From: Streptomyces virus StarPlatinum
Lineage: Duplodnaviria; Heunggongvirae; Uroviricota; Caudoviricetes
Reading direction: 5' to 3' (one strand)
DNA: 64,000 nucleotides
Virus record (IMG/VR): IMGVR_UViG_2974628900_000001
Coordinates: 60,305 to 124,304 of that record
The notes below the pieces were generated by a model. The model had not been told where the DNA came from. It was given only the letters and a program-made list of their open reading frames with translations, and ran no database searches. The translations under genes were made by a program, and so were the position numbers. Positions 14,972 to 44,078 of the stretch are shown here, piece by piece (position 1 is the stretch's first letter; the number at the start of each line of letters is the position of its first letter).

Positions 14972-15048
14972 TGGGGCGTATACCCTCTGTCTGATAAACA
15001 GTTGAAAGGTTAAGTGGTCACATGTGGGTTCAACTCCCACCGTCCCAA
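14972..15048 (+). tRNA. probable tRNA, identity unresolved
   Basis: Canonical T-arm gtgggTTCAACTcccac and pairing acceptor tggggcg/cgtccca, but D and anticodon arms could not be folded by eye. Confidence 0.35.
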
Positions 15049-27785: not shown

Positions 27786-27901
27786 AGGAGTGTAGTTTAA
27801 TTGGCAAAACCGCGAAATGCAATGTCGAAAGCGTCTGTGGCGTGAGCCCACGGTTAGTAGATATCAAAGTAGCAGTTGCGGGTTCGAGTCCCGTCACTCC
27901 G
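27786..27901 (+). ncRNA. tRNA-like element with about 40-nt internal insertion
   Basis: Acceptor aggagtg/cactcc (1:72 mismatch), D-arm GTTTAATTGGCAAAAC, canonical T-arm gcgggTTCGAGTcccgt, but 65 nt between D- and T-arms. Confidence 0.3.
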
Positions 27902-28041
27902 CTAGCCTGAGATGACGATCCGATGTAGGTCCCCTAGGGCTTGCGCAGGCCCGAAGGGCATTCGGGAAAGGTGCCTAGCTAGGTCCGTCTACCAACAAGG
28001 TGAGAGTTTTTCACGGTTTTCCTCATAATTAAACCGTGTTT

Positions 28042-35780: not shown

Positions 35781-35849
35781 AGCGGATTAGTGAAACGGTA
35801 TCACGCGAGGCTCATAATCTCGTATTCCTGTTCGAATCAGGGTCCGCCC
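35781..35849 (+). tRNA. tRNA with CAT anticodon and 1:72 mismatch (initiator-like or Ile2)
   Basis: Same D-arm as previous (GTGAAACGGTATCAC), anticodon stem cgagg/tctcg, loop ctCATaa; terminal acceptor pair unpaired. Confidence 0.55.
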
Positions 35850-35930
35850 CCACGTGATAGTGAAAGGAAGCATCATACCGATGCGATACGATTAAACTCC
35901 TTCTACCGTAAAAAGTAGAAGGAGGTGCAA

Positions 35931-36050
35931 ATGCCAGGACCAATGAGTCGCCCTGATGGTGTTCGAGAGAATGCCGAACAGCGCAAGGAGCGCGGGCGAA
36001 AGATTATTGCCGGTAAGCCTGTTAAGACAGGCAAGACTGCGAAGAAGTGA
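35931..36050 (+). CDS. small basic protein
   Basis: 39 aa; its GAAGGAGG RBS lies inside hairpin CTCCTTCTAC/GTAGAAGGAG. Confidence 0.3.
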   Translation: MPGPMSRPDGVRENAEQRKERGRKIIAGKPVKTGKTAKK

Positions 36051-36057
36051 GGTGTTC

Positions 36058-36243
36058 ATGGCTGAACGCTTCGTCAAGGATCTTGGCGAGGCCGATAGTG
36101 AAGAACATGCTTGGGCAATCTGTGTAGAACTTCGGCAGAAGATGTCAAAGGGCGCAGTTGCAGAATTCAAGCGTAAGAATTACGTCTTCAAGGCTCACAA
36201 GATTAAGAGCAGATGGCATGCCTGTCTGTTCCAGAAAACATGA
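36058..36243 (+). CDS. hypothetical protein
   Basis: 61 aa from internal ATG of track ORF 35956..36243. Confidence 0.4.
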   Translation: MAERFVKDLGEADSEEHAWAICVELRQKMSKGAVAEFKRKNYVFKAHKIKSRWHACLFQKT

Positions 36244-36263
36244 CAAACGGCCTTCGGGCCTAT

Positions 36264-36345
36264 GCGTAAGCGACGAAGTTGGAGAGTCGTGGCGGTCTGT
36301 AAAACCGTTCCTTCGGGTGAGTCAGTTCGAATCTGACCTTACGCA
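36264..36345 (+). tRNA. tRNA-Tyr (anticodon GTA), type II
   Basis: Perfect acceptor gcgtaag/cttacgc, anticodon stem gcggt/accgt, loop ctGTAaa, 12-nt variable arm; GGCC-UUCG-GGCC hairpin upstream. Confidence 0.8.
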
Positions 36346-36420
36346 CGCGAGGTTTGTAGTTCGCCCTCTGTACGGCAAGAGCGCAGCATCCATTAAGTTG
36401 GGGTACAGGAAAACTACACT

Positions 36421-36492
36421 GGTTGCAAGCCAGGGATAAGCTAGGCGGGCCTGTAAAGCCCTACCTCGTTGGTTCGAATCCAACTGCAACCA
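36421..36492 (+). tRNA. tRNA, class I body with anticodon GTA (tentative)
   Basis: Perfect acceptor ggttgca/tgcaacc, T-arm gttggTTCGAATccaac, anticodon loop ctGTAaa with 4-bp stem. Confidence 0.45.
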
Positions 36493-36494
36493 CT

Positions 36495-36567
36495 GTGACG
36501 TAAGCCGAGCGGTTAAGGCACTTGGTTGTGACCCAAGGTTTGGCGGGTTCGACTCCCGTACGTCACC
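36495..36567 (+). tRNA. tRNA-His (anticodon GTG)
   Basis: Perfect acceptor gtgacgt/acgtcac, anticodon stem cttgg/ccaag, loop ttGTGac. Confidence 0.8.
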
Positions 36568-36598
36568 CTCTACAAGTCCCTCTAACATTGGAACAAAC

Positions 36599-36976
36599 AT
36601 GGAAGACAAGTGGGGCAAGCAGGGTTTTCTCAATCCCGTAGACAGTCGTGATGACGGCTGGTACAAGTTCGCTACTGAGTTCACCAAGGATGATCGTAAG
36701 ATCTGTGTGAACACTCAGTTCACAATTTCAGACTGTTCAAACAAGGCTTATCTTGAGTTTGATGTCCGATATCTTTACTTCGGTACAACTTCTCTGGACG
36801 AGATCTCTGAGCGCCAGAAGGAAATAAACGCCCGGCGCAAGAAGGTCAAGGAACTTCGTGATGCTGTAGCAGAATGGGCAGAAGAAACCCTCGCTATTTA
36901 CGACAAATACGAGGATGCCCTAAAGAGCATCAAGAAGGAAGCCAAGAAGAATGGGAAGAAGAAGGGTAGCAAGTAG
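36599..36976 (+). CDS. hypothetical Lys-rich protein
   Basis: 125-aa ORF. Confidence 0.45.
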   Translation: MEDKWGKQGFLNPVDSRDDGWYKFATEFTKDDRKICVNTQFTISDCSNKAYLEFDVRYLYFGTTSLDEISERQKEINARRKKVKELRDAVAEWAEETLAIYDKYEDALKSIKKEAKKNGKKKGSK

Positions 36977-37283
36977 TCTTGCGATCATGCTACTGAGTGT
37001 AGTAGCATGTAGTCGTGGGGAGTCAGACTTCTCTACTAAGGACAAAGCATTTGTCAAGACTGTGAGACAAGAGATCACAGCAAGTAGAGACATGTCTGAT
37101 GGTCAATTGATTGAGTCTGCAAAGGCTGTCTGCAACATCGCAGAAGAGGAAGACAACTTCCTTGACGTTGTTGACAGAACACGCCCGGCGCTAGGATTCA
37201 CCCCAAGTGATACTAGCTATTACGTAGGCGCATCAATTGCTGCTTACTGCCCTGAAAACAAAAACATCATTCCTGGAGCATAA
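36951..37283 (+). CDS. putative lipoprotein
   Basis: Signal-like SLAIMLLSVVAC with lipobox Cys. Confidence 0.45.
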   Translation: MGRRRVASSLAIMLLSVVACSRGESDFSTKDKAFVKTVRQEITASRDMSDGQLIESAKAVCNIAEEEDNFLDVVDRTRPALGFTPSDTSYYVGASIAAYCPENKNIIPGA

Positions 37284-37284
37284 G

Positions 37285-37539
37285 ATGCAGATTGGTTTTG
37301 AATACATTGAGGGCAACGGTCCATTCACTGTAGTTGGATATATCGGAGACAGCTTCAATCCCTTGAAACAGCCTTTCGAGCTTCACTATCATGATGGATT
37401 CGCAGAACTGATTGTCATCACCGATGACTATGTAGTTCGTGCCACTGGAGAATACAACAGAGGCATTGGCGTTCTCAATGCTGGAGAAACTGGTCAGCTT
37501 ATCTTTAACCTAGTCCATCAACTTGACAATGGGGACTAA
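37285..37539 (+). CDS. hypothetical protein
   Basis: 84 aa from internal ATG (TAAGATG junction). Confidence 0.4.
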   Translation: MQIGFEYIEGNGPFTVVGYIGDSFNPLKQPFELHYHDGFAELIVITDDYVVRATGEYNRGIGVLNAGETGQLIFNLVHQLDNGD

Positions 37540-37558
37540 CTCCTGTAATGTAGTTAAT

Positions 37559-37633
37559 GGCGGCGTCGTAGAGAGTTTCTACCGGTAGTCTGCAAAACTA
37601 CTCGATTAGAGGGTGCGACTCCCTCCGTTGCCT
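37559..37633 (+). tRNA. tRNA (Cys GCA?) with non-canonical T-loop
   Basis: Acceptor ggcggcg/cgttgcc, D gtag/ctac, anticodon stem gtagt/actac, loop ctGCAaa; T-loop TGCGACT rather than TTCGAxT. Confidence 0.45.
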
Positions 37634-37635
37634 CT

Positions 37636-37710
37636 GCCGGATTAGCTCATTTGGTGTAGAGCGGCTGTCTTGTAAACAGCAGGTGATCGGTTCGAAACCG
37701 ATATCCGGCT
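37636..37710 (+). tRNA. tRNA-Thr (anticodon TGT)
   Basis: Perfect acceptor gccggat/atccggc, anticodon stem gctgt/acagc, loop ctTGTaa. Confidence 0.8.
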
Positions 37711-37802
37711 CAATGGAGGACCAACCCAGGGAGAATGCAACCGAACTGGGCAATGGGAATTCAGGACGGTCTAGTACCTAGTTGCAGGGGAACGGCCTTT
37801 AT

Positions 37803-37874
37803 GCCCCCATAGTGCTAGTGGTAACACGGTATCTTGGTAAGATACTATCGTCAGTTCGATTCTGACTGGGGGAT
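37803..37874 (+). tRNA. tRNA-Thr (anticodon GGT)
   Basis: Anticodon stem gtatc/gatac, loop ttGGTaa, T-arm gtcagTTCGATTctgac. Confidence 0.7.
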
Positions 37875-37997
37875 CTGGAAGGATGTGATTTCATGTACAG
37901 GCTAAAGTCTCTAGTGGCAAAGCTTAAGCCATATCTACCAGCAGCCCTTGCTTGGTGGAGTGCACGAAAGCGTAAGACCAGGGTGTAACAGCCCTTT

Positions 37998-38069
37998 CTC
38001 TCCGTAGGCTAATGGATAAACCGAGAGGCTACGAACCTCTAATTCTCAGTTCGAGTCTGGGCGGAGAGG
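37998..38069 (+). tRNA. tRNA-Arg (anticodon ACG)
   Basis: Perfect acceptor ctctccg/cggagag, anticodon stem agagg/cctct, loop ctACGaa. Confidence 0.8.
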
Positions 38070-38071
38070 CT

Positions 38072-38096
38072 GGCCCCGATCATTTGATCGGGGCCT
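38072..38096 (+). terminator. rho-independent terminator after tRNA cluster
   Basis: GGCCCCGATC-attt-GATCGGGGCC then T-rich. Confidence 0.7.
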
Positions 38097-38121
38097 TACT
38101 TCATGTTTAAGGTGATTTAAC

Positions 38122-38268
38122 ATGTGTGAAATGAACCGGTGGGAGAACGAGGGAGGTAAGACAACTAAGCTTCCTTGCATCTTTCATGGAAAAGAATATA
38201 AAGAACATGACTTCTACTATGGTGATCAATGCCGTAGGTGTGGAGTCTGGAAGGATGAGCAAGATTGA
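38122..38268 (+). CDS. small Cys-containing protein
   Basis: 48 aa, C...CIFH...CRRC. Confidence 0.35.
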   Translation: MCEMNRWENEGGKTTKLPCIFHGKEYKEHDFYYGDQCRRCGVWKDEQD

Positions 38269-38822
38269 AGATTTTTTACGACACCGAATTTTATGAGACT
38301 GGACCGGAGGAGCCTGTTAGGTTCATCAGTCTAGGCGCGGTGCGCGAGGATGGCGAACGACTGTACCTGATCACCAACAACCTCTACGTGCTCAACAGAG
38401 CAAATGAGAATGAGTGGATGAGGGAGAACGTCATCGCCCATTTGCCAGTAAAGCAGACGGACACTGGAAGCCTCGCATGGGACACTCAGCATCCCGACTA
38501 CGCAAGGGTTCTGCCCAACGAGGCGATTGCTGGATTGTGGAGAGATTTCGTCCTGGACTACGACGAGGCACATGAGTTTGACAAGCCCGAGCTGTGGGCC
38601 TACTATGGAGCCTATGACCATGTGGTTGTCAGCCAGCTCTTTGGGCGTATGATTGACTTGCCAGATGGCATGCCGATGTATACAATGGATCTAAAGCAGC
38701 GTTGGCACAACGAGGGAAGACCTCCGCTACCAAAGCAAGACGGTGGAGAGCACAACGCCCTTGACGATGCCTTGTGGAACAAGATAGTATCAGACTATCT
38801 AGACGCTTACGGCGAAAGGTAA
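38265..38822 (+). CDS. DEDDh 3'-5' exonuclease (DnaQ/RNase T-like)
   Basis: Exo I FYDTEF, Exo II YGAYDHVV, Exo III HNALDDA. Confidence 0.75.
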   Translation: MKIFYDTEFYETGPEEPVRFISLGAVREDGERLYLITNNLYVLNRANENEWMRENVIAHLPVKQTDTGSLAWDTQHPDYARVLPNEAIAGLWRDFVLDYDEAHEFDKPELWAYYGAYDHVVVSQLFGRMIDLPDGMPMYTMDLKQRWHNEGRPPLPKQDGGEHNALDDALWNKIVSDYLDAYGER

Positions 38823-38826
38823 TTAA

Positions 38827-39222
38827 ATGGGTGATCGCACCAATGTTGGCGTAGTCATGCGTGGCAGCAATGGACAAGAGAAGCTTGGTATCCTGTGGGT
38901 TTATTCACACTGGGGTCTACCTGGCATTACGGCTTCCATTGCGAAGGCTCTTGACAACGCCAAGGGTCGATGGGATGATGATATGTATGGACAGCGAATC
39001 TTCGTTCAGTCCATCATGGAGGCCGGTGGCATGGAAGGTAGCTCTGAGCTAGGCGGTGGACTAAGCTTTAACTTCATCGCTGACAATGAGCACAAGCTTT
39101 GGGTGGCTGACTTCTACGACCAAACGATGTATCTCTTCCCTGAGTACAGCGGTGGTCTTGACACACCCGAGCCTCTTGTGGCAACATCATTTCAGAACTT
39201 CGTCACTAAGTATCTTAAGTGA
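38827..39222 (+). CDS. hypothetical protein
   Basis: 131-aa ORF. Confidence 0.45.
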   Translation: MGDRTNVGVVMRGSNGQEKLGILWVYSHWGLPGITASIAKALDNAKGRWDDDMYGQRIFVQSIMEAGGMEGSSELGGGLSFNFIADNEHKLWVADFYDQTMYLFPEYSGGLDTPEPLVATSFQNFVTKYLK

Positions 39223-39243
39223 CGTAGGCCCTTCGGGGCTCTA

Positions 39244-39522
39244 GGGGATGCCTTGGTTTCGACTGGGGTGGATGACTTTAGTTTGCAGCCTGACATTGAG
39301 GAGATGTCATTAAAAAGCCTCAAACCTATAAATGCCAACTCTAACGTTGCATCTGCCTACGCCCTAGCGGCGTGATGGCCGGGCGGCGACTGCCTAGGAA
39401 CAGAAAGTTGCGAATGTTTGGCCCGGTGGGGATAAACACATCGTAGTATCTGCTTGACACATGGCTGTGTATAGACTACTGTTTGAAGCATCAGGACGCG
39501 GGTTCGACTCCCGCCATCTCCA
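39244..39522 (+). ncRNA. ssrA: tmRNA (SsrA), tag peptide (A)NSNVASAYALAA
   Basis: 5' GGGGATGCCTTGGTTTCGACTGGGG and 3' GGACGCGGGTTCGACTCCCGCCATCTCCA parallel E. coli tmRNA ends; G3:U70 in acceptor; internal ORF GCC AAC TCT AAC GTT GCA TCT GCC TAC GCC CTA GCG GCG TGA. Confidence 0.85.
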
Positions 39523-39535
39523 CTTAAGGATCATC

Positions 39536-39850
39536 ATGAACTTGACAGGTCGCTCCACTATGGTAGACTTCGATCTGAGCGAGCAAGACGCTCGAACGAT
39601 TCAGAAGAGCATGCGAACTGGTCCTGTGACTCTCAAGGTTACTAGGATTCAGATCAGCTACACATACGGCGCGGTGCTTGTTGGCCTTGATCGTAACCCT
39701 GGCCCTCACTACAAGGTGAGAGTATCAGGATATCGAATGAAGGCTGGCATGAAGCAACGTGATACTGTTGTTCAGCACAGCTATCTTAACCCTGACCTGC
39801 CAGACTGGCTTGAGCAGATGGTTGTTGACAACGCTCCCAACTGGTACTAG
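39536..39850 (+). CDS. hypothetical protein
   Basis: AAGGA RBS; 104 aa; start placed after tmRNA 3' end. Confidence 0.45.
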   Translation: MNLTGRSTMVDFDLSEQDARTIQKSMRTGPVTLKVTRIQISYTYGAVLVGLDRNPGPHYKVRVSGYRMKAGMKQRDTVVQHSYLNPDLPDWLEQMVVDNAPNWY

Positions 39851-39859
39851 GATGTAAAC

Positions 39860-40084
39860 ATGCCGAAATGGATGCGACTTCCGGGAACGGATAAGGAAGC
39901 CAGCCTTAGTGATAGGGTTGGCTCTGCCTTCGAAAATGGTTATGGCGATGAAGGCCCTTTGGCCAAGGGAATCGTCATTGGAGGATGTGTTTTCCTCCCT
40001 CTCATAGTTACTCTTGGCATCTTTGGTGGTGCTGCGTATGGACTCTGGAGGCTTGCCGAATGGCTCTGGACTATGATAGCCTGA
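39860..40084 (+). CDS. membrane protein
   Basis: 74 aa with C-terminal hydrophobic helices. Confidence 0.45.
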   Translation: MPKWMRLPGTDKEASLSDRVGSAFENGYGDEGPLAKGIVIGGCVFLPLIVTLGIFGGAAYGLWRLAEWLWTMIA

Positions 40085-40132
40085 TGAAGAAGTGGATGGA
40101 CACCATCCGAAAGATGAATCAGAAAGGCTGAC

Positions 40133-40537
40133 ATGCGTACCAAAACAGTTACTAAACTGGTGCGTAATCTCACGCAAAAAGAATACAGTCAGTGCAAGTC
40201 TCTGAACTTCCGCTATGACGGCTGTATGATGTATGATCTCCCCTGGTCAAAGAAGGCTTTTCCAAAGCAGGCCAGAGTGGTTATGATCAAAGACGCTGAG
40301 ACTGATATGCTTATCGCTTGGTGTCTCGCATATCCGAACAATGCGGGTGACAACTTCATCACTCAGTATTACACTAGAGTGAAGTTCCGCAACATGGGTT
40401 ATGGAAGCCGTCTGATTTACCATGTCAGAAAGTTCGCTCCAAGCCCTGTAGTAATGCCGCACGATCCAAATAGTCGTGCGTTTTTCCGTAAGCACGAAGA
40501 CAAGATCACTGTCCGTGCTTCTCACTCTCTCTACTGA
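40133..40537 (+). CDS. putative GNAT-family acetyltransferase
   Basis: RNMGYGSRLIYHVRKF resembles GNAT motif A; weak. Confidence 0.35.
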   Translation: MRTKTVTKLVRNLTQKEYSQCKSLNFRYDGCMMYDLPWSKKAFPKQARVVMIKDAETDMLIAWCLAYPNNAGDNFITQYYTRVKFRNMGYGSRLIYHVRKFAPSPVVMPHDPNSRAFFRKHEDKITVRASHSLY

Positions 40538-40547
40538 AAGGCCCAAA

Positions 40548-40763
40548 ATGGCTAAGCGTGTCAAGGCTCTTGAGCTTCGTTCCACCGACCGTGACAACTT
40601 CTTCAACCTGTACGTTTCTGGTTCTTGGAAGGGTCTCGTTGAGACCAGCAAGGTCGGCCGTAAGACCAACTTCCGTATCCACGGTGCAAAGCGTAACTTC
40701 GAGGACTTCACTGGCACCAAGAAGGACTTTGAGGCTTTCGCCAAGGAGCGCTTCTCCAAGTGA
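40548..40763 (+). CDS. hypothetical basic protein
   Basis: 71 aa from internal ATG; overlapping minus-strand ORFs judged spurious. Confidence 0.4.
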   Translation: MAKRVKALELRSTDRDNFFNLYVSGSWKGLVETSKVGRKTNFRIHGAKRNFEDFTGTKKDFEAFAKERFSK

Positions 40764-40767
40764 GGTA

Positions 40768-41016
40768 ATGATGTTTGACAGGGTTGTCAAGAGTTACGAC
40801 TACTCCTGCTACGCTTGTCCGGTAATTGTAGATGGCTTCCTTAAGTCTGGGGAGCCATTCTATTTCCGACTTCGTCACGGTGTCGCCAGGCTCGTTCTGG
40901 AGGACACAAAACGCGCGGCGGTGATGGAAGCAATTGACGGTCTAGACGGCACATGTAGCAATGAGCAGTTCAAGCAAATGTTCAATCGCCTGTACCTTGA
41001 AATCGTAATGGGCTGA
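40768..41016 (+). CDS. hypothetical Cys-containing protein
   Basis: GAGGTAA RBS; 82 aa (MMFDRVVKSYDYSCYACPV...). Confidence 0.4.
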   Translation: MMFDRVVKSYDYSCYACPVIVDGFLKSGEPFYFRLRHGVARLVLEDTKRAAVMEAIDGLDGTCSNEQFKQMFNRLYLEIVMG

Positions 41017-41027
41017 AAGGCCCTAAT

Positions 41028-41086
41028 GCTACGTAGCTTAATATGGCAAAGCAACTCTTGGCCAGAGTGTCATGTGGTTCGAACCC
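41028..41086 (+). ncRNA. degenerate tRNA-like element
   Basis: Acceptor gctacgt/tcgtagc and D-arm GCTTAATATGGCAAAGC present, but weak T-stem and 4-bp anticodon stem. Confidence 0.3.
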
Positions 41087-41176
41087 CATCGTAGCAGCAA
41101 TATCAATTAGACTTCATAATCACTCTCCTGTTATACTATAGATGCCTAATTCATCAGAGGCAGGAGGATTGATTAT

Positions 41177-41617
41177 ATGGATTTTGTAGAACATTTGGGC
41201 TACCAATACCTCACTGACCTTCTGACGGAAATCCGCGTAGGCCAGCAGGGATTGGAGGAACGAATGGCAGACCTAACAACTGAGGTTGCAAACCTCCGTG
41301 AGGCAGTAAGCGGTGTTAGCGCACGTGTAGATGCTCTTGTTGGTCCACTAACGGACGCCGTTAGAGAGGCCCAGGATGCACTAGCAGCCGAGCGTCAGGC
41401 AGCAGCAGATCTTGCAGCAGCCGAAGACGCAGAGGACGTAGCGCAGAACCAGGCTCTTGCAGATGCGCAGGCTGCAACAGATGCCGCACTTGCAAACGCT
41501 CAGACAGCAGCCGACGAGATCAGTGCAGAAACTGCACGTCTTAACGAGGTTGCAAAGCCAGCCGAGGAGCCTACTCCAGAGCCAGAGCAGCCATCTGGTC
41601 CAGTAGTAGAAGGTTGA
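41177..41617 (+). CDS. Ala/Glu-rich coiled-coil protein
   Basis: 146 aa, low complexity AAADLAAAEDAEDVAQNQALADAQAA; RBS partly sequestered by CTCCTG/CAGGAG inverted repeat. Confidence 0.5.
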   Translation: MDFVEHLGYQYLTDLLTEIRVGQQGLEERMADLTTEVANLREAVSGVSARVDALVGPLTDAVREAQDALAAERQAAADLAAAEDAEDVAQNQALADAQAATDAALANAQTAADEISAETARLNEVAKPAEEPTPEPEQPSGPVVEG

Positions 41618-41673
41618 TAAAAAAGGAGTTGACAGCCCCTATAGGTCTCTAGTAGACTAGCTGTCATAAGCAT

Positions 41674-41801
41674 GGCCCCAAAGAGCCACTAGCGGTCTAC
41701 GGTAGCGCTGCCGCCCGTTAGACTCCATGCGGCACCAGGCTTGTGCAACCGACGGGTTGAGAACATAAGCAAAGGGGAGGGTTCGAATCCCTCTGGGGTC
41801 C
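41674..41801 (+). ncRNA. long tRNA-like element (about 128 nt)
   Basis: TTGACA-18-TAGACT promoter upstream; ggcccca/tggggtc acceptor pairing and canonical T-arm gagggTTCGAATccctc separated by about 95 nt. Confidence 0.3.
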
Positions 41802-41872
41802 ACTATGATTATAAACTATGACCCTGGTTAAGTAGCTTGACAAGCTACACTACAACAACTAGGATGTGATGT

Positions 41873-42169
41873 ATGGCTACCATCAAGGAACGCGGAACCG
41901 ACAAGTGGAACATGAGCAAGGCGACTCGTCGCAGTGCCCGCAACTTTGTCGAGCGTGAGAAGGTTGGCAAGGCTAAGAAGAAGAACACTCGCAAGTGGTG
42001 CAAGGGTAAGGAAGGGCGTAAGCACACTCTCGCTCTTTACAACAAGTACACCTGGCGTCACGGATACAAGTGCTTCAAGTGCAGCAAGGAATTCTACTTC
42101 CCCATCAACCGCGAGGACTTTGACTTCGTTGAGCGCAAGTGGGAAGATGACTACAACTGGGGCAACTGA
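41873..42169 (+). CDS. basic Cys-containing protein
   Basis: TTGACA-17-TAGGAT promoter; 98 aa, Lys/Arg-rich, CKGK...CFKC. Confidence 0.45.
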   Translation: MATIKERGTDKWNMSKATRRSARNFVEREKVGKAKKKNTRKWCKGKEGRKHTLALYNKYTWRHGYKCFKCSKEFYFPINREDFDFVERKWEDDYNWGN

Positions 42170-42354
42170 TGCAGCTTAAGATGTACGCTATTGCCTGTGA
42201 CCAAGCAGAAGCTATCAAAAACTGCTACACAGGCAAGTACACAAATCAACCATTCTGGCCAGAGCATAAGACTCTGGTACCATATCTGCAAAGGGCCAGG
42301 GAGGAAAACCCTGACCTTCCACTAAAGATCTTTGTCATTAAGGTGAGTGGATAA
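42169..42354 (+). CDS. hypothetical protein
   Basis: 61-aa ORF (ATGA overlap). Confidence 0.4.
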   Translation: MQLKMYAIACDQAEAIKNCYTGKYTNQPFWPEHKTLVPYLQRAREENPDLPLKIFVIKVSG

Positions 42355-42356
42355 AA

Positions 42357-42617
42357 TTGGCCGGTAACAAGAACAGCCGTAAGAAGTGGCTTTGTCTTGA
42401 CTGTGGTGTTGACACTGGCAAGATTGGCGAACACTTCTTTCTGATCAACGATGTCTGGTCCTTGACAGGACTTGGACACAAGGGTATGCTCTGTGTAGAG
42501 CACGTTGAGAAGCGCATCGGCAGGCGTCTTGTTCCGGCCGATTTTGCTTCTGTATGGATTAACGGACCGCGAGGCGGCGTCAAGAGCCAGCGCCTTGCTA
42601 ATCGATTGGGATTGTAA
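42357..42617 (+). CDS. zinc-finger protein
   Basis: 86 aa, CLDCG...CVEH. Confidence 0.45.
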   Translation: MAGNKNSRKKWLCLDCGVDTGKIGEHFFLINDVWSLTGLGHKGMLCVEHVEKRIGRRLVPADFASVWINGPRGGVKSQRLANRLGL

Positions 42618-42829
42618 TGGTGTGGAATTGGGTTGAGGCAGCGCCAGAAGCTGTCGAATACTACAAAAAGAAGAAGGCTGCACATGTTGCCGACGTTGGT
42701 GACATTGAGGTCTGGCGAGACGCCTACGGTTATTCTCGTCTGATCAAGGAGTCTGACGGCAAGATCTACATCAGCGGCCGAGACTTCTTCACGATCAAGG
42801 ACGCCAAAGATGCAGCCGCTGCGTGTTAA
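42617..42829 (+). CDS. hypothetical protein
   Basis: 70-aa ORF. Confidence 0.4.
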   Translation: MVWNWVEAAPEAVEYYKKKKAAHVADVGDIEVWRDAYGYSRLIKESDGKIYISGRDFFTIKDAKDAAAAC

Positions 42830-43001
42830 TGTTGGCGATATAGTCTGTGACTGTCGCTACCTTCACCTAAAGGTCTTGAAGATCTGGCCCGATGGTGATA
42901 CAGTATCTCTAGAAGATGGATCAAGTTGCTCCATCAGACATTGCTTGGATGCTGCTGATCATGAATGGCAGCATCCGGAAAACTACTAATCTGGAGGACC
43001 G

Positions 43002-44078
43002 ATGAAGTTCACCAAGATCTTCTCACAGGAGCTGCTTGACGAGATGATCTCAGAGGGCTATGTCCGGGCGCAATTTCATCCGGTTCTGCCTCTCAAGATT
43101 CTCAACTACTCCGAGAAGACTCAGTTCGCTGGAAAGTGGAATGACTGCACGCTTAACTGTCGTGGATTGATCGTTGACCTTGACGGCAACTTGATTGCTC
43201 GTCCTTTCATGAAGTTCTTCAACTTGGGTGACTCTCAGTCTGCACAACTTGACTGGGATGCTCCGGTTGAGGTTACGGACAAGAAGGACGGCTCAATGGG
43301 GGTTCTGTACTCATACGGCGGTGATTGGGCAATTGCGACTCGCGGCTCATTCATGTCAGACCAGGCGATTCACGGAACTCGTGTGCTAAATGAGCGTTAC
43401 AGCCACATCCAGTTTGTCTCAGACTACACTTTCATCTTCGAGATCGTTTACCCTGAGAACAGGATTGTTCTGGACTACGGTTCAATGGACGACCTGATTC
43501 TTCTGGGTGCGGTTCACAAGGAGTACGGTTACGTCTGCGGCCCTCTGGAGGCTCAGGCAATTGTTAATTGGGACGGGCCGGTGACGGAGGTCTTCAATTA
43601 CAACTCATTGCGTGAGGCGGCTGGAGCGCAGTACAGGAAGAACGCAGAGGGTTTCGTAGTCCGCTCTGGCAACAAGATGGTCAAGATCAAGCAGGCAGAT
43701 TACGTTGAGCTGCACCGCATGATCTCCATGCTTTCAGAGCGTTCTGTATGGAGCCAGCTCACCGAGGGCAAGACGATTCTTGAGATTTGTGAGGCACTGC
43801 CTGACGAGTTTCACGGGTTTGTCAAGGACGTTGGTGGCAAGCTTCTCACTGACTACGAGCGCATCGAGGTCGAGGTTTACGGTATCTACCAGAACCTTCT
43901 GACTTCTTTGGGCGAGGGTTTCACGCGACGTGACTTCGCAATGGCCGCAAACCGAATCGATCTCTACAGGTCTCACATGTTCAACCTGCTTGACGGGAAG
44001 AGCATCAATGAGCTAATCTGGAAGCAGATCAGGCCGGAGGCCAAGCGAGAGGACGTACACCCTACCAATGCAGGCTAA
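43002..44078 (+). CDS. rnlA: RNA ligase 1 (T4 RnlA-like) tRNA repair ligase
   Basis: NCRGLIVDLDGNLIARPFMKFFNLGD matches T4 Rnl1 ECRGIMFEMDGE..RPMEKFFNLNE; motif I KxDGS (TDKKDGSMG); FEIVYPENRIVLDY; motif V KMVKIKQADY. Confidence 0.85.
   Translation: MKFTKIFSQELLDEMISEGYVRAQFHPVLPLKILNYSEKTQFAGKWNDCTLNCRGLIVDLDGNLIARPFMKFFNLGDSQSAQLDWDAPVEVTDKKDGSMGVLYSYGGDWAIATRGSFMSDQAIHGTRVLNERYSHIQFVSDYTFIFEIVYPENRIVLDYGSMDDLILLGAVHKEYGYVCGPLEAQAIVNWDGPVTEVFNYNSLREAAGAQYRKNAEGFVVRSGNKMVKIKQADYVELHRMISMLSERSVWSQLTEGKTILEICEALPDEFHGFVKDVGGKLLTDYERIEVEVYGIYQNLLTSLGEGFTRRDFAMAANRIDLYRSHMFNLLDGKSINELIWKQIRPEAKREDVHPTNAG

What the first reader, a model, noticed from the sequence alone, without database searches (positions are those of the whole stretch)
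39244..39522. Phage-encoded tmRNA with tag ANSNVASAYALAA
Both ends match tmRNA architecture: 5' GGGGAUGCCUUGGUUUCGACUGGGG and 3' GGACGCGGGUUCGACUCCCGCCAUCUCCA, with G3:U70 for alanylation. The internal reading frame ends ...YALAA-stop like bacterial SsrA tags. A downstream protein gene starts 14 nt after the 3' end.
Basis: partly seen in the sequence, partly recalled or inferred. Interest (0 to 1): 0.6.

Follow-up and report, generated by a model that had tools for sequence, protein, structure and literature searches.

The report
Known tmRNA gene of Streptomyces phage

Summary
ARAGORN calls a tmRNA at 39244-39523 with tag ANSNVASAYALAA*. Rfam RF00023 scores 92.5 bits against a gathering score of 47, E 1e-34. 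The window is 100% identical to Streptomyces phage StarPlatinum (MH576965), whose GenBank record already annotates this tmRNA. One tmRNA plus more than 40 tRNAs is a published hallmark of cluster BE phages (PMC5764925, PMC13191466).

New here is the anatomy. On 22 distinct relatives, 71 proposed pairs are 88.8% paired, against 38-48% when the partners are slid, and 32 pairs change on both sides. The RNA keeps the alanine-tRNA-like domain (G3:U70, discriminator A), helix P2, pseudoknot PK1, the U(-5)A(-4) frame-setting bases, the tag frame with its stop codon inside helix 5, and a compact PK2. PK3 and PK4 are replaced by a 51-nt variable linker, giving 280 nt against 367-403 nt in Streptomyces hosts. 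Tag codons vary synonymously, so the peptide is under selection. No Streptomyces phage record shows an SmpB match, so the RNA must use host SmpB.

The likely role, inferred and not shown, is rescue of stalled ribosomes during lytic infection. Novelty: already known. Interest is low.

The parts
39244..39522 (+). tmRNA gene (ssrA-like), first G to discriminator A. The CCA tail is not encoded (followed by CTT).
   Evidence: ARAGORN 39244-39523; Rfam RF00023 92.5 bits; GenBank tmRNA feature 198 of MH576965 at 99548-99827, which is window 39244-39523.
39244..39250 (+). Acceptor stem P1, 5' strand GGGGAUG. It pairs with 39515-39521 (CAUCUCC). G3 (39246) pairs with U70 (39519).
   Evidence: Sequence. 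In 68 of 69 distinct phage tmRNAs the stem is fully paired, G3:U70 is kept, and positions 4-6 covary.
39263..39290 (+). Helix P2, 5' strand (gene positions 20-47). It pairs in four segments with 39463-39494.
   Evidence: helices 2-5: 74-100% of cells paired, and 7 pairs change on both sides.
39291..39323 (+). Pseudoknot PK1. P3 is gene 48-52 with 62-66; P4 is gene 53-58 with 75-80.
   Evidence: helices 6 and 7 (87.5% and 96.2% paired; 2 and 3 pairs with compensatory change). P4 was also found independently by RNAalifold.
39324..39333 (+). Single-stranded spacer before the resume codon. The frame-setting bases U(-5) and A(-4) are at 39329-39330, within the motif AUAAAUG.
   Evidence: AUAAAUG is invariant in the 22-sequence alignment. 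The roles of U85 and A86 in E. coli come from PMC2481249.
39334..39375 (+). Tag reading frame: resume codon GCC, 13 sense codons reading ANSNVASAYALAA, stop UGA at 39373-39375.
   Evidence: Synonymous-only variation within tag classes across the family.
39355..39379 (+). Helix 5 (gene 112-114 with 134-136, and 116-120 with 126-130). It encloses the stop codon.
   Evidence: helices 8-10: 91-98% paired, and 4 pairs change on both sides.
39380..39411 (+). Compact H-type pseudoknot PK2. S1 is gene 137 with 155 plus 138-141 with 149-152. S2 is gene 143-148 with 163-168. The loop AACAGAA (gene 156-162) is invariant.
   Evidence: Helix 11 is 100% paired with 2 covarying pairs (7 sequences each). Helix 12 has 5 of 6 pairs with compensatory change.
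39412..39462 (+). Variable 51-nt linker where canonical tmRNAs have PK3 and PK4. It holds only a weakly supported, lineage-specific hairpin (gene 172-176 with 191-195, and 179-181 with 186-188).
   Evidence: In the Rfam alignment, model blocks of 32 and 55 positions are matched by 8+10 nt here, 7+5 nt in Peebs and 10+14 nt in Faust, while a host tmRNA fills them. Helices 13-14 are only 69-71% paired.
39463..39494 (+). Helix P2, 3' strand (gene positions 220-251).
   Evidence: helices 2-5.
39498..39514 (+). T-arm: stem GCGGG/CCCGC with T-loop UUCGACU.
   Evidence: helix 15: 100% paired, 2 covarying pairs. The 3' 30 nt are 96.7% identical to Streptomyces tmRNA.
39515..39522 (+). Acceptor stem 3' strand CAUCUCC plus discriminator A73.
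39227..39240 (+). GC-rich UUCG hairpin abutting the tmRNA 5' end. Probably the stable 3' end of the upstream mRNA after RNase P cleavage, or a processing signal (inferred).
   Evidence: Sequence. The structure is kept with different sequences in relatives: ACCC/GGGU in Jay2Jay, AGGUGA/UCACCU in Peebs, Daubenski and Riptide.
39536..39850 (+). Downstream protein gene (104 aa, no Pfam match) with its ribosome-binding site AAGGA at 39526-39530. It shows the tmRNA is embedded in a + strand polycistronic array.

Best explanation
It is the one-piece tmRNA (ssrA-type) gene of the lytic Streptomyces siphovirus StarPlatinum (subcluster BE2, genus Karimacvirus).

Shown here: the RNA has every element that a tmRNA needs to act.
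- An alanine-tRNA-like domain with G3:U70, discriminator A and a T-arm almost identical to the host's.
- The long helix P2 and pseudoknot PK1.
- The U(-5)A(-4) frame-setting bases.
- A 13-codon tag frame ending in YALAA, with its stop codon inside helix 5.
- A compact second pseudoknot, PK2.
- PK3 and PK4 are deleted, so the RNA is 280 nt instead of about 370-400 nt.

Inferred:
- It is transcribed as part of the + strand array of tRNA genes and small ORFs.
- It is cut out by host RNase P at the 5' end and by a 3' nuclease, and it receives CCA from the host CCA-adding enzyme.
- It is charged by host AlaRS, bound by host SmpB (the phage has none) and delivered by EF-Tu to ribosomes stalled on broken or hard-to-read mRNAs during infection.
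- The ribosome switches to the tag frame, adds A-ANSNVASAYALAA, terminates and is recycled. The tagged fragment goes to host ClpXP-type proteases through the C-terminal LAA.
- For a 49% GC phage in a host of more than 70% GC (PMC12509530) that also brings about 43 tRNAs, this would keep ribosomes available for the phage.
For: - ARAGORN and Rfam hits.
- 100% identity to an annotated tmRNA in MH576965/NC_048721.
- Homologues in 97 Streptomyces phage records and in most of the 87 IMG/VR viral loci returned by one pattern scan.
- Structure test on 22 distinct sequences: 88.8% of cells paired against 38-48% for slid partners, 32 pairs with change on both sides, 0 of 500 shuffles reaching the observed values.
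- G3:U70 and discriminator A in 68 of 69 distinct phage tmRNAs, with covarying acceptor and T stems.
- AUAAAUG before the resume codon is invariant, which places U and A at -5 and -4 as in E. coli U85/A86 (PMC2481249).
- Tag peptides are conserved through synonymous changes. One peptide is encoded by 16 different ORFs, and the (F/Y)ALAA positions each use 2-4 synonymous codons.
- Host Streptomyces tags end in FALAA and start with AN(S/T)K.
- The 3' 30 nt are 96.7% identical to host tmRNA.
- tblastn finds SmpB in 68 phage records, none of them a Streptomyces phage, while host smpB sits next to host ssrA.
- Literature: one tmRNA in every BE1 and BE2 phage (PMC5764925, PMC13191466); BE2 phages lack an integrase and a repressor (PMC13191466).
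Against: - There are no expression, processing, charging or tagging data for this or any BE phage tmRNA, so function in trans-translation rests on conservation alone.
- PK3 and PK4 are missing. Per PMC2481249 (background, citing its ref. [quoted passage not shown]
- Apart from the tRNA-like 3' end, the sequence shows no detectable nucleotide similarity to host tmRNA, so compatibility with host SmpB is assumed.
- No promoter-like site lies directly upstream; the nearest is at 38951-38979, so the transcription unit is inferred.
Confidence: 0.85

Rival explanations
1. It acts mainly as a decoy. The phage RNA titrates host SmpB (and AlaRS or EF-Tu) to shut down the host's own trans-translation, as proposed for the tRNA-like-domain-only molecule of mycobacteriophage DS6A, rather than rescuing ribosomes productively.
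For: The phage has no SmpB of its own, and its tRNA-like 3' end is almost identical to the host's, so it must compete for the same partners. A TLD-only phage form is known, and a similar molecule strongly inhibits tmRNA in E. coli (PMC4131195; PMC11915505).
Against: A pure decoy needs no message part. Yet the tag frame, its stop codon inside helix 5, the U(-5)A(-4) bases, PK1 and PK2 are all conserved with compensatory and synonymous changes.
Confidence: 0.06
2. It is a working tmRNA whose purpose is to change the fate of tagged proteins. By out-competing host tmRNA it replaces the host tag (12-18 aa, with a charged KRDS-type middle) with a shorter, uncharged tag. This would alter adaptor or protease recognition, for instance to speed up or evade degradation of particular stalled products.
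For: Phage tags (11-13 aa: ANSNVASAYALAA, ANSKFAFALAA, DNSNVAFALAA) consistently lack the charged K-R-D-S middle found in all the Streptomyces tags collected.
Against: The C-terminal (F/Y)ALAA degron is strictly kept, which suggests the same protease route. No adaptor that reads the middle of the tag is known to me in Streptomyces. Shortening may simply reflect genome economy.
Confidence: 0.07
3. It is a leftover of an integration site: a partial host ssrA copy carried as attP by an element that integrates into the host tmRNA gene.
For: tmRNA genes are frequent integration sites for genomic islands (PMC11915505), and the 3' 30 nt match host ssrA at 96.7%.
Against: The gene is full length with its own divergent 5' half, PK1, tag and PK2. 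BE2 phages have no integrase or repressor (PMC13191466). The acceptor and T stems covary among the phages, so they are not frozen copies of a host site.
Confidence: 0.01

Closest known systems
The annotated tmRNA genes of cluster BE / Stanwilliamsviridae Streptomyces phages (StarPlatinum gene 198; Hughes et al. 2018, PMC5764925; BE2 phages CeilingFan and Mugiwara, PMC13191466)
   Same: It is the same gene: 100% identity to MH576965 99548-99827, and 93-99% to other BE2 phages with the identical tag ANSNVASAYALAA.
   Different: Nothing differs. The published notes only count the gene. The secondary structure, the PK3/PK4 loss, the host comparison and the absence of SmpB described here were not found in the papers searched.
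Host Streptomyces tmRNA (SsrA; standard one-piece tmRNA, Rfam RF00023)
   Same: - Same acceptor stem GGGGAUG/CAUCUCC with G3:U70 and discriminator A, and a T-arm differing at one base.
- CCA is usually not encoded in either.
- Same order of P2, PK1, tag with helix 5, then PK2.
- Tags start with AN(S/T) and end with ALAA.
   Different: - The phage RNA is 280 nt against 367-403 nt in the host.
- PK3 and PK4 are absent, and PK2 is compact.
- The tag lacks the charged KRDS middle and ends YALAA rather than FALAA.
- Outside the 3' 30 nt there is no detectable nucleotide similarity.
- No adjacent smpB.
tmRNAs of cluster C mycobacteriophages (Bxz1, Cali, Catera and others) and Bacillus phage G
   Same: Full tmRNA genes carried by large lytic phages that also carry many tRNA genes (PMC4131195; PMC1475703).
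   Different: Different phage families and hosts. No sequence comparison was made here.
Mycobacteriophage DS6A tRNA-like-domain-only tmRNA
   Same: A phage-borne derivative of tmRNA that must use host SmpB (PMC4131195; PMC11915505).
   Different: DS6A lacks the tag frame and is thought to inhibit trans-translation. The element here keeps a conserved tag frame and both flanking pseudoknots.

Membership tests
tmRNA, standard one-piece form (Rfam RF00023) | Covariance-model score at or above the curated gathering score | tested here: met
   92.5 bits against 47, E 1e-34, model positions 1-374. ARAGORN also calls it.
tmRNA, standard one-piece form (Rfam RF00023) | tRNA-Ala-like acceptor stem with G3:U70 and discriminator A73 | tested here: met
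   39244-39250 pairs with 39515-39521; G39246:U39519; A39522. Kept in 68 of 69 distinct phage relatives, with covariation at stem positions 4-6.
tmRNA, standard one-piece form (Rfam RF00023) | T-arm with a T-loop, no anticodon arm, and a long helix P2 joining the tRNA-like domain to the rest | tested here: met
   T stem 100% paired with 2 covarying pairs. P2 segments 74-100% paired with 7 pairs changed on both sides.
tmRNA, standard one-piece form (Rfam RF00023) | Pseudoknot PK1 about 10-12 nt upstream of the resume codon | tested here: met
   P3 and P4 at 39291-39323, ending 10 nt before GCC at 39334. Five pairs show compensatory change.
tmRNA, standard one-piece form (Rfam RF00023) | Internal tag frame without a start codon, set by upstream U(-5)A(-4), ending in a hydrophobic ...ALAA degron and a stop codon in helix 5 | tested here: met
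   Tag frame at 39334-39375 reading ANSNVASAYALAA*. U39329 and A39330 lie within the invariant AUAAAUG. Helix 5 encloses the UGA. Synonymous variation across the family.
tmRNA, standard one-piece form (Rfam RF00023) | Three further pseudoknots (PK2, PK3, PK4) downstream of the tag. [quoted passage not shown] | tested here: not met
   Only a compact PK2 is present. The model blocks for PK3 and PK4 (32 + 55 positions) are matched by 8+10 nt, while a host tmRNA fills them.
tmRNA, standard one-piece form (Rfam RF00023) | Works with SmpB, AlaRS and EF-Tu in trans-translation | not testable with these tools
   No SmpB match in any Streptomyces phage record. Host smpB lies next to host ssrA. Binding, charging and tagging need experiments.
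Cluster BE (Stanwilliamsviridae) phage tmRNA | Sequence identity and the same genomic position as the annotated tmRNA of BE phages, within the tRNA array and next to the DnaQ-like exonuclease gene | tested here: met
   100% identity to StarPlatinum feature 198. Homologues in 97 records. Same neighbours in Wofford, Jay2Jay, Daubenski, Peebs, Riptide and Tomas.
TLD-only phage tmRNA (DS6A type) | [quoted passage not shown] | tested here: not met
   A full message domain with a conserved tag frame is present.
Two-piece (permuted) tmRNA | Circularly permuted gene, with the acceptor 3' half upstream of the 5' half | tested here: not met
   ARAGORN and Rfam both report the standard collinear form.

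The most novel reading that the evidence does not exclude
The most novel reading not excluded is that the tmRNA belongs to an anti-defence translation kit. Together with the ~43 tRNAs and a neighbouring 3'-5' exoribonuclease-like gene, this naturally minimised two-pseudoknot tmRNA would specifically rescue ribosomes stalled when host defence nucleases (anticodon nucleases, mRNA-cleaving toxins) cut tRNAs or mRNAs during infection. It would mark the products with a phage-specific tag that lacks the charged middle of the host tag. This extends the suggestion in PMC5764925 that the tRNA set may counter tRNA-degrading defences.
Probability: 0.12. Interest if true: 0.55.

Novelty: already known. 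Interest (0 to 1): 0.15.

Why it matters
It matters little as a discovery. The gene is annotated in the source record, counted in published genome announcements, and lies in RefSeq viruses, which the 2025 tmRNA database processed.

What the analysis adds is modest:
- A covariation-backed structure showing a natural tmRNA that retains only PK1 and a compact PK2.
- Evidence that the tag peptide is under selection.
- Evidence that these phages lack SmpB and so depend on the host protein.
- The observation that related tmRNAs are common in uncultivated low-GC viral contigs.

Together these make this phage family a convenient natural test case for the minimal requirements of trans-translation, and for why large lytic phages bring their own ribosome-rescue RNA.

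Tried and rejected
- **All-against-all column-pair scan.** On a plain MAFFT alignment it recovered only P1, the T-arm and parts of P2 and PK2, because gap placement broke the other helices. I replaced it with an explicit structure test.
- **Outer helix 136-141/178-183.** I first read CCGGGC/GCCCGG (gene coordinates) as the outer stem of a nested PK2. I rejected it because BE1 and the Faust/Annadreamy group lack the 3' strand, and covariation instead supports pairing of 137-141 with 149-155.
- **Kissing interaction.** A CCUAG (helix 5 loop) to CUAGG (PK2) interaction was considered. It is not conserved in BE1 and was dropped.
- **Full-length covariance model.** Not built, because a 280-position model would probably have exceeded the calibration time limit.
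- **Origin of the phage tmRNA.** BLAST against 112 actinobacterial tmRNAs matched only the 3' 30 nt, equally well in Streptomyces and other genera, so the donor lineage cannot be told.
- **S. coelicolor SmpB-tmRNA paper (PMC2635970).** It gave oligos but not the written tag. Host tags were taken from genomes instead.
- **Promoter scan.** No site lies directly upstream of the gene.
- **First version of the acceptor-stem script.** It failed on a regular-expression error and was rerun.

Full report
**1. Observation**

- The 5' end is GGGGATGCCTTGGTTTCGACTGGGG.
- The 3' end is GGACGCGGGTTCGACTCCCGCCATCTCCA.
- G39246 lies opposite T39519, which is the G3:U70 pair.
- The internal frame at 39334-39375 encodes ANSNVASAYALAA followed by TGA.
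- The next gene starts with ATG at 39536, after AAGGA at 39526-39530.

ARAGORN reports a tmRNA at 39244-39523 with exactly this tag. The Rfam tmRNA model RF00023 matches 39244-39525 over its full length at 92.5 bits, against a gathering score of 47, with E 1e-34. The one refinement is that the CCA tail is not encoded, because the discriminator A39522 is followed by CTT.

**2. What genome this is**

Window 36000-44000 is 100% identical to Streptomyces phage StarPlatinum (MH576965 / NC_048721, 133,886 bp; host S. griseus; Stanwilliamsviridae, Karimacvirus). That record already carries a tmRNA feature (gene 198) at 99548-99827, which is window 39244-39523.

Homologues occur in 97 Streptomyces phage records. 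Hughes et al. 2018 state that each cluster BE1 phage has one tmRNA and 43-48 tRNAs (PMC5764925). The same is reported for BE2 phages, which lack an integrase and a repressor (PMC13191466). RefSeq viruses were processed for the 2025 tmRNA database (PMC11915505). Phage-borne ssrA has been known since the cluster C mycobacteriophages, Bacillus phage G and DS6A (PMC4131195). The finding is correct but already known.

**3. Anatomy**

I collected 22 distinct tmRNAs of the short family (267-298 nt; BE1, BE2, Tomasvirus, the Faust/Annadreamy group and IMG/VR contigs) and aligned them (A1). RNAalifold independently found P2d, PK1 helix P4, helix 5, part of PK2 and the T-arm.

I then tested a full structure, including pseudoknots, drawn on the StarPlatinum sequence.
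- 71 pairs, with 88.8% of cells paired, against 38.5-48.5% when the 3' partners are slid by 1-3 columns.
- 32 pairs change on both sides.
- 0 of 500 shuffles reach the observed pairing, covariation score or number of pairs changed on both sides (the count of further pair types was not above the shuffles, 302 of 500).

The elements, in gene coordinates (window coordinate = gene coordinate + 39243):

| Element | Gene coordinates |
|---|---|
| P1 | 1-7 with 272-278 |
| P2 (four segments) | 20-47 with 220-251 |
| PK1, helix P3 | 48-52 with 62-66 |
| PK1, helix P4 | 53-58 with 75-80 |
| Single-stranded spacer | 81-90 |
| Resume codon GCC | 91-93 |
| Stop UGA | 130-132 |
| Helix 5 (encloses the stop) | 112-136 |
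| PK2, S1 | 137-141 with 149-155 |
| PK2, S2 | 143-148 with 163-168 |
| PK2 invariant loop AACAGAA | 156-162 |
| Variable linker | 169-219 |
| T-arm | 255-271 |

PK2 S1 is 100% paired with two covarying pairs. Five of the six S2 pairs show compensatory change.

Some apparent mismatches in P1, P3 and S2 come from MAFFT gap placement. With end-anchored coordinates, 68 of 69 distinct phage tmRNAs have a fully paired acceptor stem, G3:U70 and discriminator A.

The motif AUAAAUG before the resume codon is invariant. It puts U at -5 and A at -4, which correspond to E. coli U85 and A86. A86 is the main frame determinant in E. coli (PMC2481249).

**4. Comparison with the host**

A pattern scan of bacterial genomes returned 120 loci, and ARAGORN extracted 112 usable tmRNAs from them, including about 30 from Streptomyces. 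Streptomyces tmRNAs are 367-403 nt, with tags such as ANTKRDSFALAA, ANSKRDSSAFALAA and ANTKRDSSQQAFALAA.

- The phage RNA is about 100 nt shorter.
- In the Rfam alignments a host tmRNA fills the model blocks for PK3 and PK4. StarPlatinum, Peebs and Faust cover those 32+55 positions with only 8+10, 7+5 and 10+14 nt.
- The 3' 30 nt of the tRNA-like domain are 96.7% identical to Streptomyces tmRNA, but equally so to other Actinobacteria. Nothing else aligns by BLAST, so the donor lineage is undetermined.
- Most Streptomyces ssrA genes also lack an encoded CCA.
- Phage tags keep the AN(S) start and the (F/Y)ALAA end but lack the charged KRDS-type middle.

**5. Is the tag translated?**

Among 85 phage and viral-contig tmRNAs there are 39 distinct tag ORFs encoding 13 peptides. 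AESRSAFALAA alone is encoded by 16 different ORFs. The last five sense positions each use 2-4 synonymous codons, and all three stop codons occur. Pairwise codon differences are 1951 synonymous against 914 non-synonymous. This is the pattern expected for a translated peptide. It argues against a pure decoy such as the DS6A TLD-only molecule.

**6. Partners and expression**

A Streptomyces SmpB (Pfam PF01668, E 1e-61; it lies just upstream of host ssrA) finds matches in 68 phage records by tblastn, none of them a Streptomyces phage. The phage tmRNA must therefore rely on host SmpB, and by inference on host AlaRS, EF-Tu and the CCA-adding enzyme.

The gene sits in a + strand array of tRNAs and small ORFs. 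No promoter-like site lies directly upstream. A GC-rich hairpin at 39227-39240 abuts the 5' end, and its structure is conserved with different sequences in relatives. A ribosome-binding site and start codon follow within 10-20 nt in all relatives. Co-transcription followed by excision with tRNA-processing enzymes is the most economical reading, but it is inferred.

**7. Mechanism and rivals**

The best explanation (confidence about 0.85) is a functional, minimised tmRNA. It would use host factors to release ribosomes stalled during lytic infection of a host of more than 70% GC (as stated in PMC12509530) by a phage of about 49% GC, and it would tag the products for ClpXP-type degradation.

The rivals are:
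- an SmpB-titrating decoy (0.06; contradicted by the conserved message domain);
- a tag-swapping role that alters protein fate (0.07; the degron end is conserved, and the missing charged middle is unexplained);
- an attP remnant (0.01; the gene is full length, the stems covary, and there is no integrase).

None of these changes the identity of the element.

**8. Verdict**

This is a real feature, correctly interpreted, and already annotated and published. The additions here are a tested secondary structure with PK1 and a compact PK2 only, selection on the tag peptide, dependence on host SmpB, and a wide distribution of related tmRNAs in uncultivated viral contigs. These are incremental. Novelty: already known. 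Interest: about 0.15.

Noticed in passing
window 27786-27902 (+): A 117-nt tRNA-like element that GenBank does not annotate. Rfam tRNA scores 33.6 bits (gathering score 29), and GenBank has nothing between tRNA-Leu 150 and tRNA-Phe 151. It has a good acceptor stem and T-arm but about 45 extra nt in the middle. Intron-aware ARAGORN at a lowered threshold calls it tRNA-Cys(gca) with a 30-nt intron and a long extra arm.
   Followed up: partly
window 14972-15048 (+): A weak Rfam tRNA hit (30.3 bits, gathering score 29) that ARAGORN does not call.
   Followed up: no
window 38265-38822 (+): This gene is annotated as 'DnaQ-like DNA polymerase III subunit' or 'RNase H'. It matches Pfam PF16473, the Rv2179c-like 3'-5' exoribonuclease domain (29.2 bits, gathering score 27, E 9e-7). 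It lies next to, or within two genes upstream of, the tmRNA in Jay2Jay, Daubenski, Peebs, Riptide, Tomas and StarPlatinum. It may be an RNA 3'-end trimming enzyme for the CCA-less tRNAs and tmRNA rather than a replication protein.
   Followed up: partly
window 12563-56467, all tRNA genes, and 39523: The base right after the discriminator is C in 41 of 42 ARAGORN tRNAs and in the tmRNA. A full CCA is encoded only in tRNA-Met at 35781-35852. Most Streptomyces ssrA genes likewise end ...CTCCA-C-N.
   Followed up: partly
window 39227-39240 (+): The hairpin GGCCC-UUCG-GGGCU sits 3 nt before the tmRNA 5' end. Jay2Jay has a compensatory variant (ACCC/GGGU). Peebs, Daubenski and Riptide have a different hairpin (AGGUGA/UCACCU) in the same place. 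This suggests a conserved role in processing or in stabilising the upstream mRNA.
   Followed up: partly
window 36000-42000: Sigma-70-like sites of the form TTGACA-N16-18-TAGGAT/TAGACT are enriched: 19 found against 5.4 +/- 2.2 in shuffles, mostly on the + strand. One lies at 39542-39569, just inside the gene after the tmRNA.
   Followed up: no
IMG/VR loci L132-L218: A large uncultivated group of viral contigs (locus GC 40-49%) carries tmRNAs of 298-353 nt with tags AESRSAFALAA or ANSRSAFALAA. Four contigs (L142, L159, L172, L205) carry permuted two-piece tmRNAs with long tags of 23 aa.
   Followed up: partly
GenBank records of relatives (TomSawyer, Bordeaux, Tribute, EGole, Evy, Bmoc, Limpid, SaltySpitoon, TunaTartare): In several deposited genomes the homologous tmRNA locus is labelled 'Hypothetical Protein' or carries no feature, so the annotation is inconsistent across the cluster.
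   Followed up: no
window 36421-36492 (+): GenBank annotates a second tRNA-Tyr(gta) here (record 96725-96796).
   Followed up: no
window 40133-40537 (+): This ORF is annotated as hypothetical in StarPlatinum but matches the Pfam GNAT acetyltransferase family (PF00583, 29.8 bits). Relatives annotate it as an acetyltransferase.
   Followed up: no
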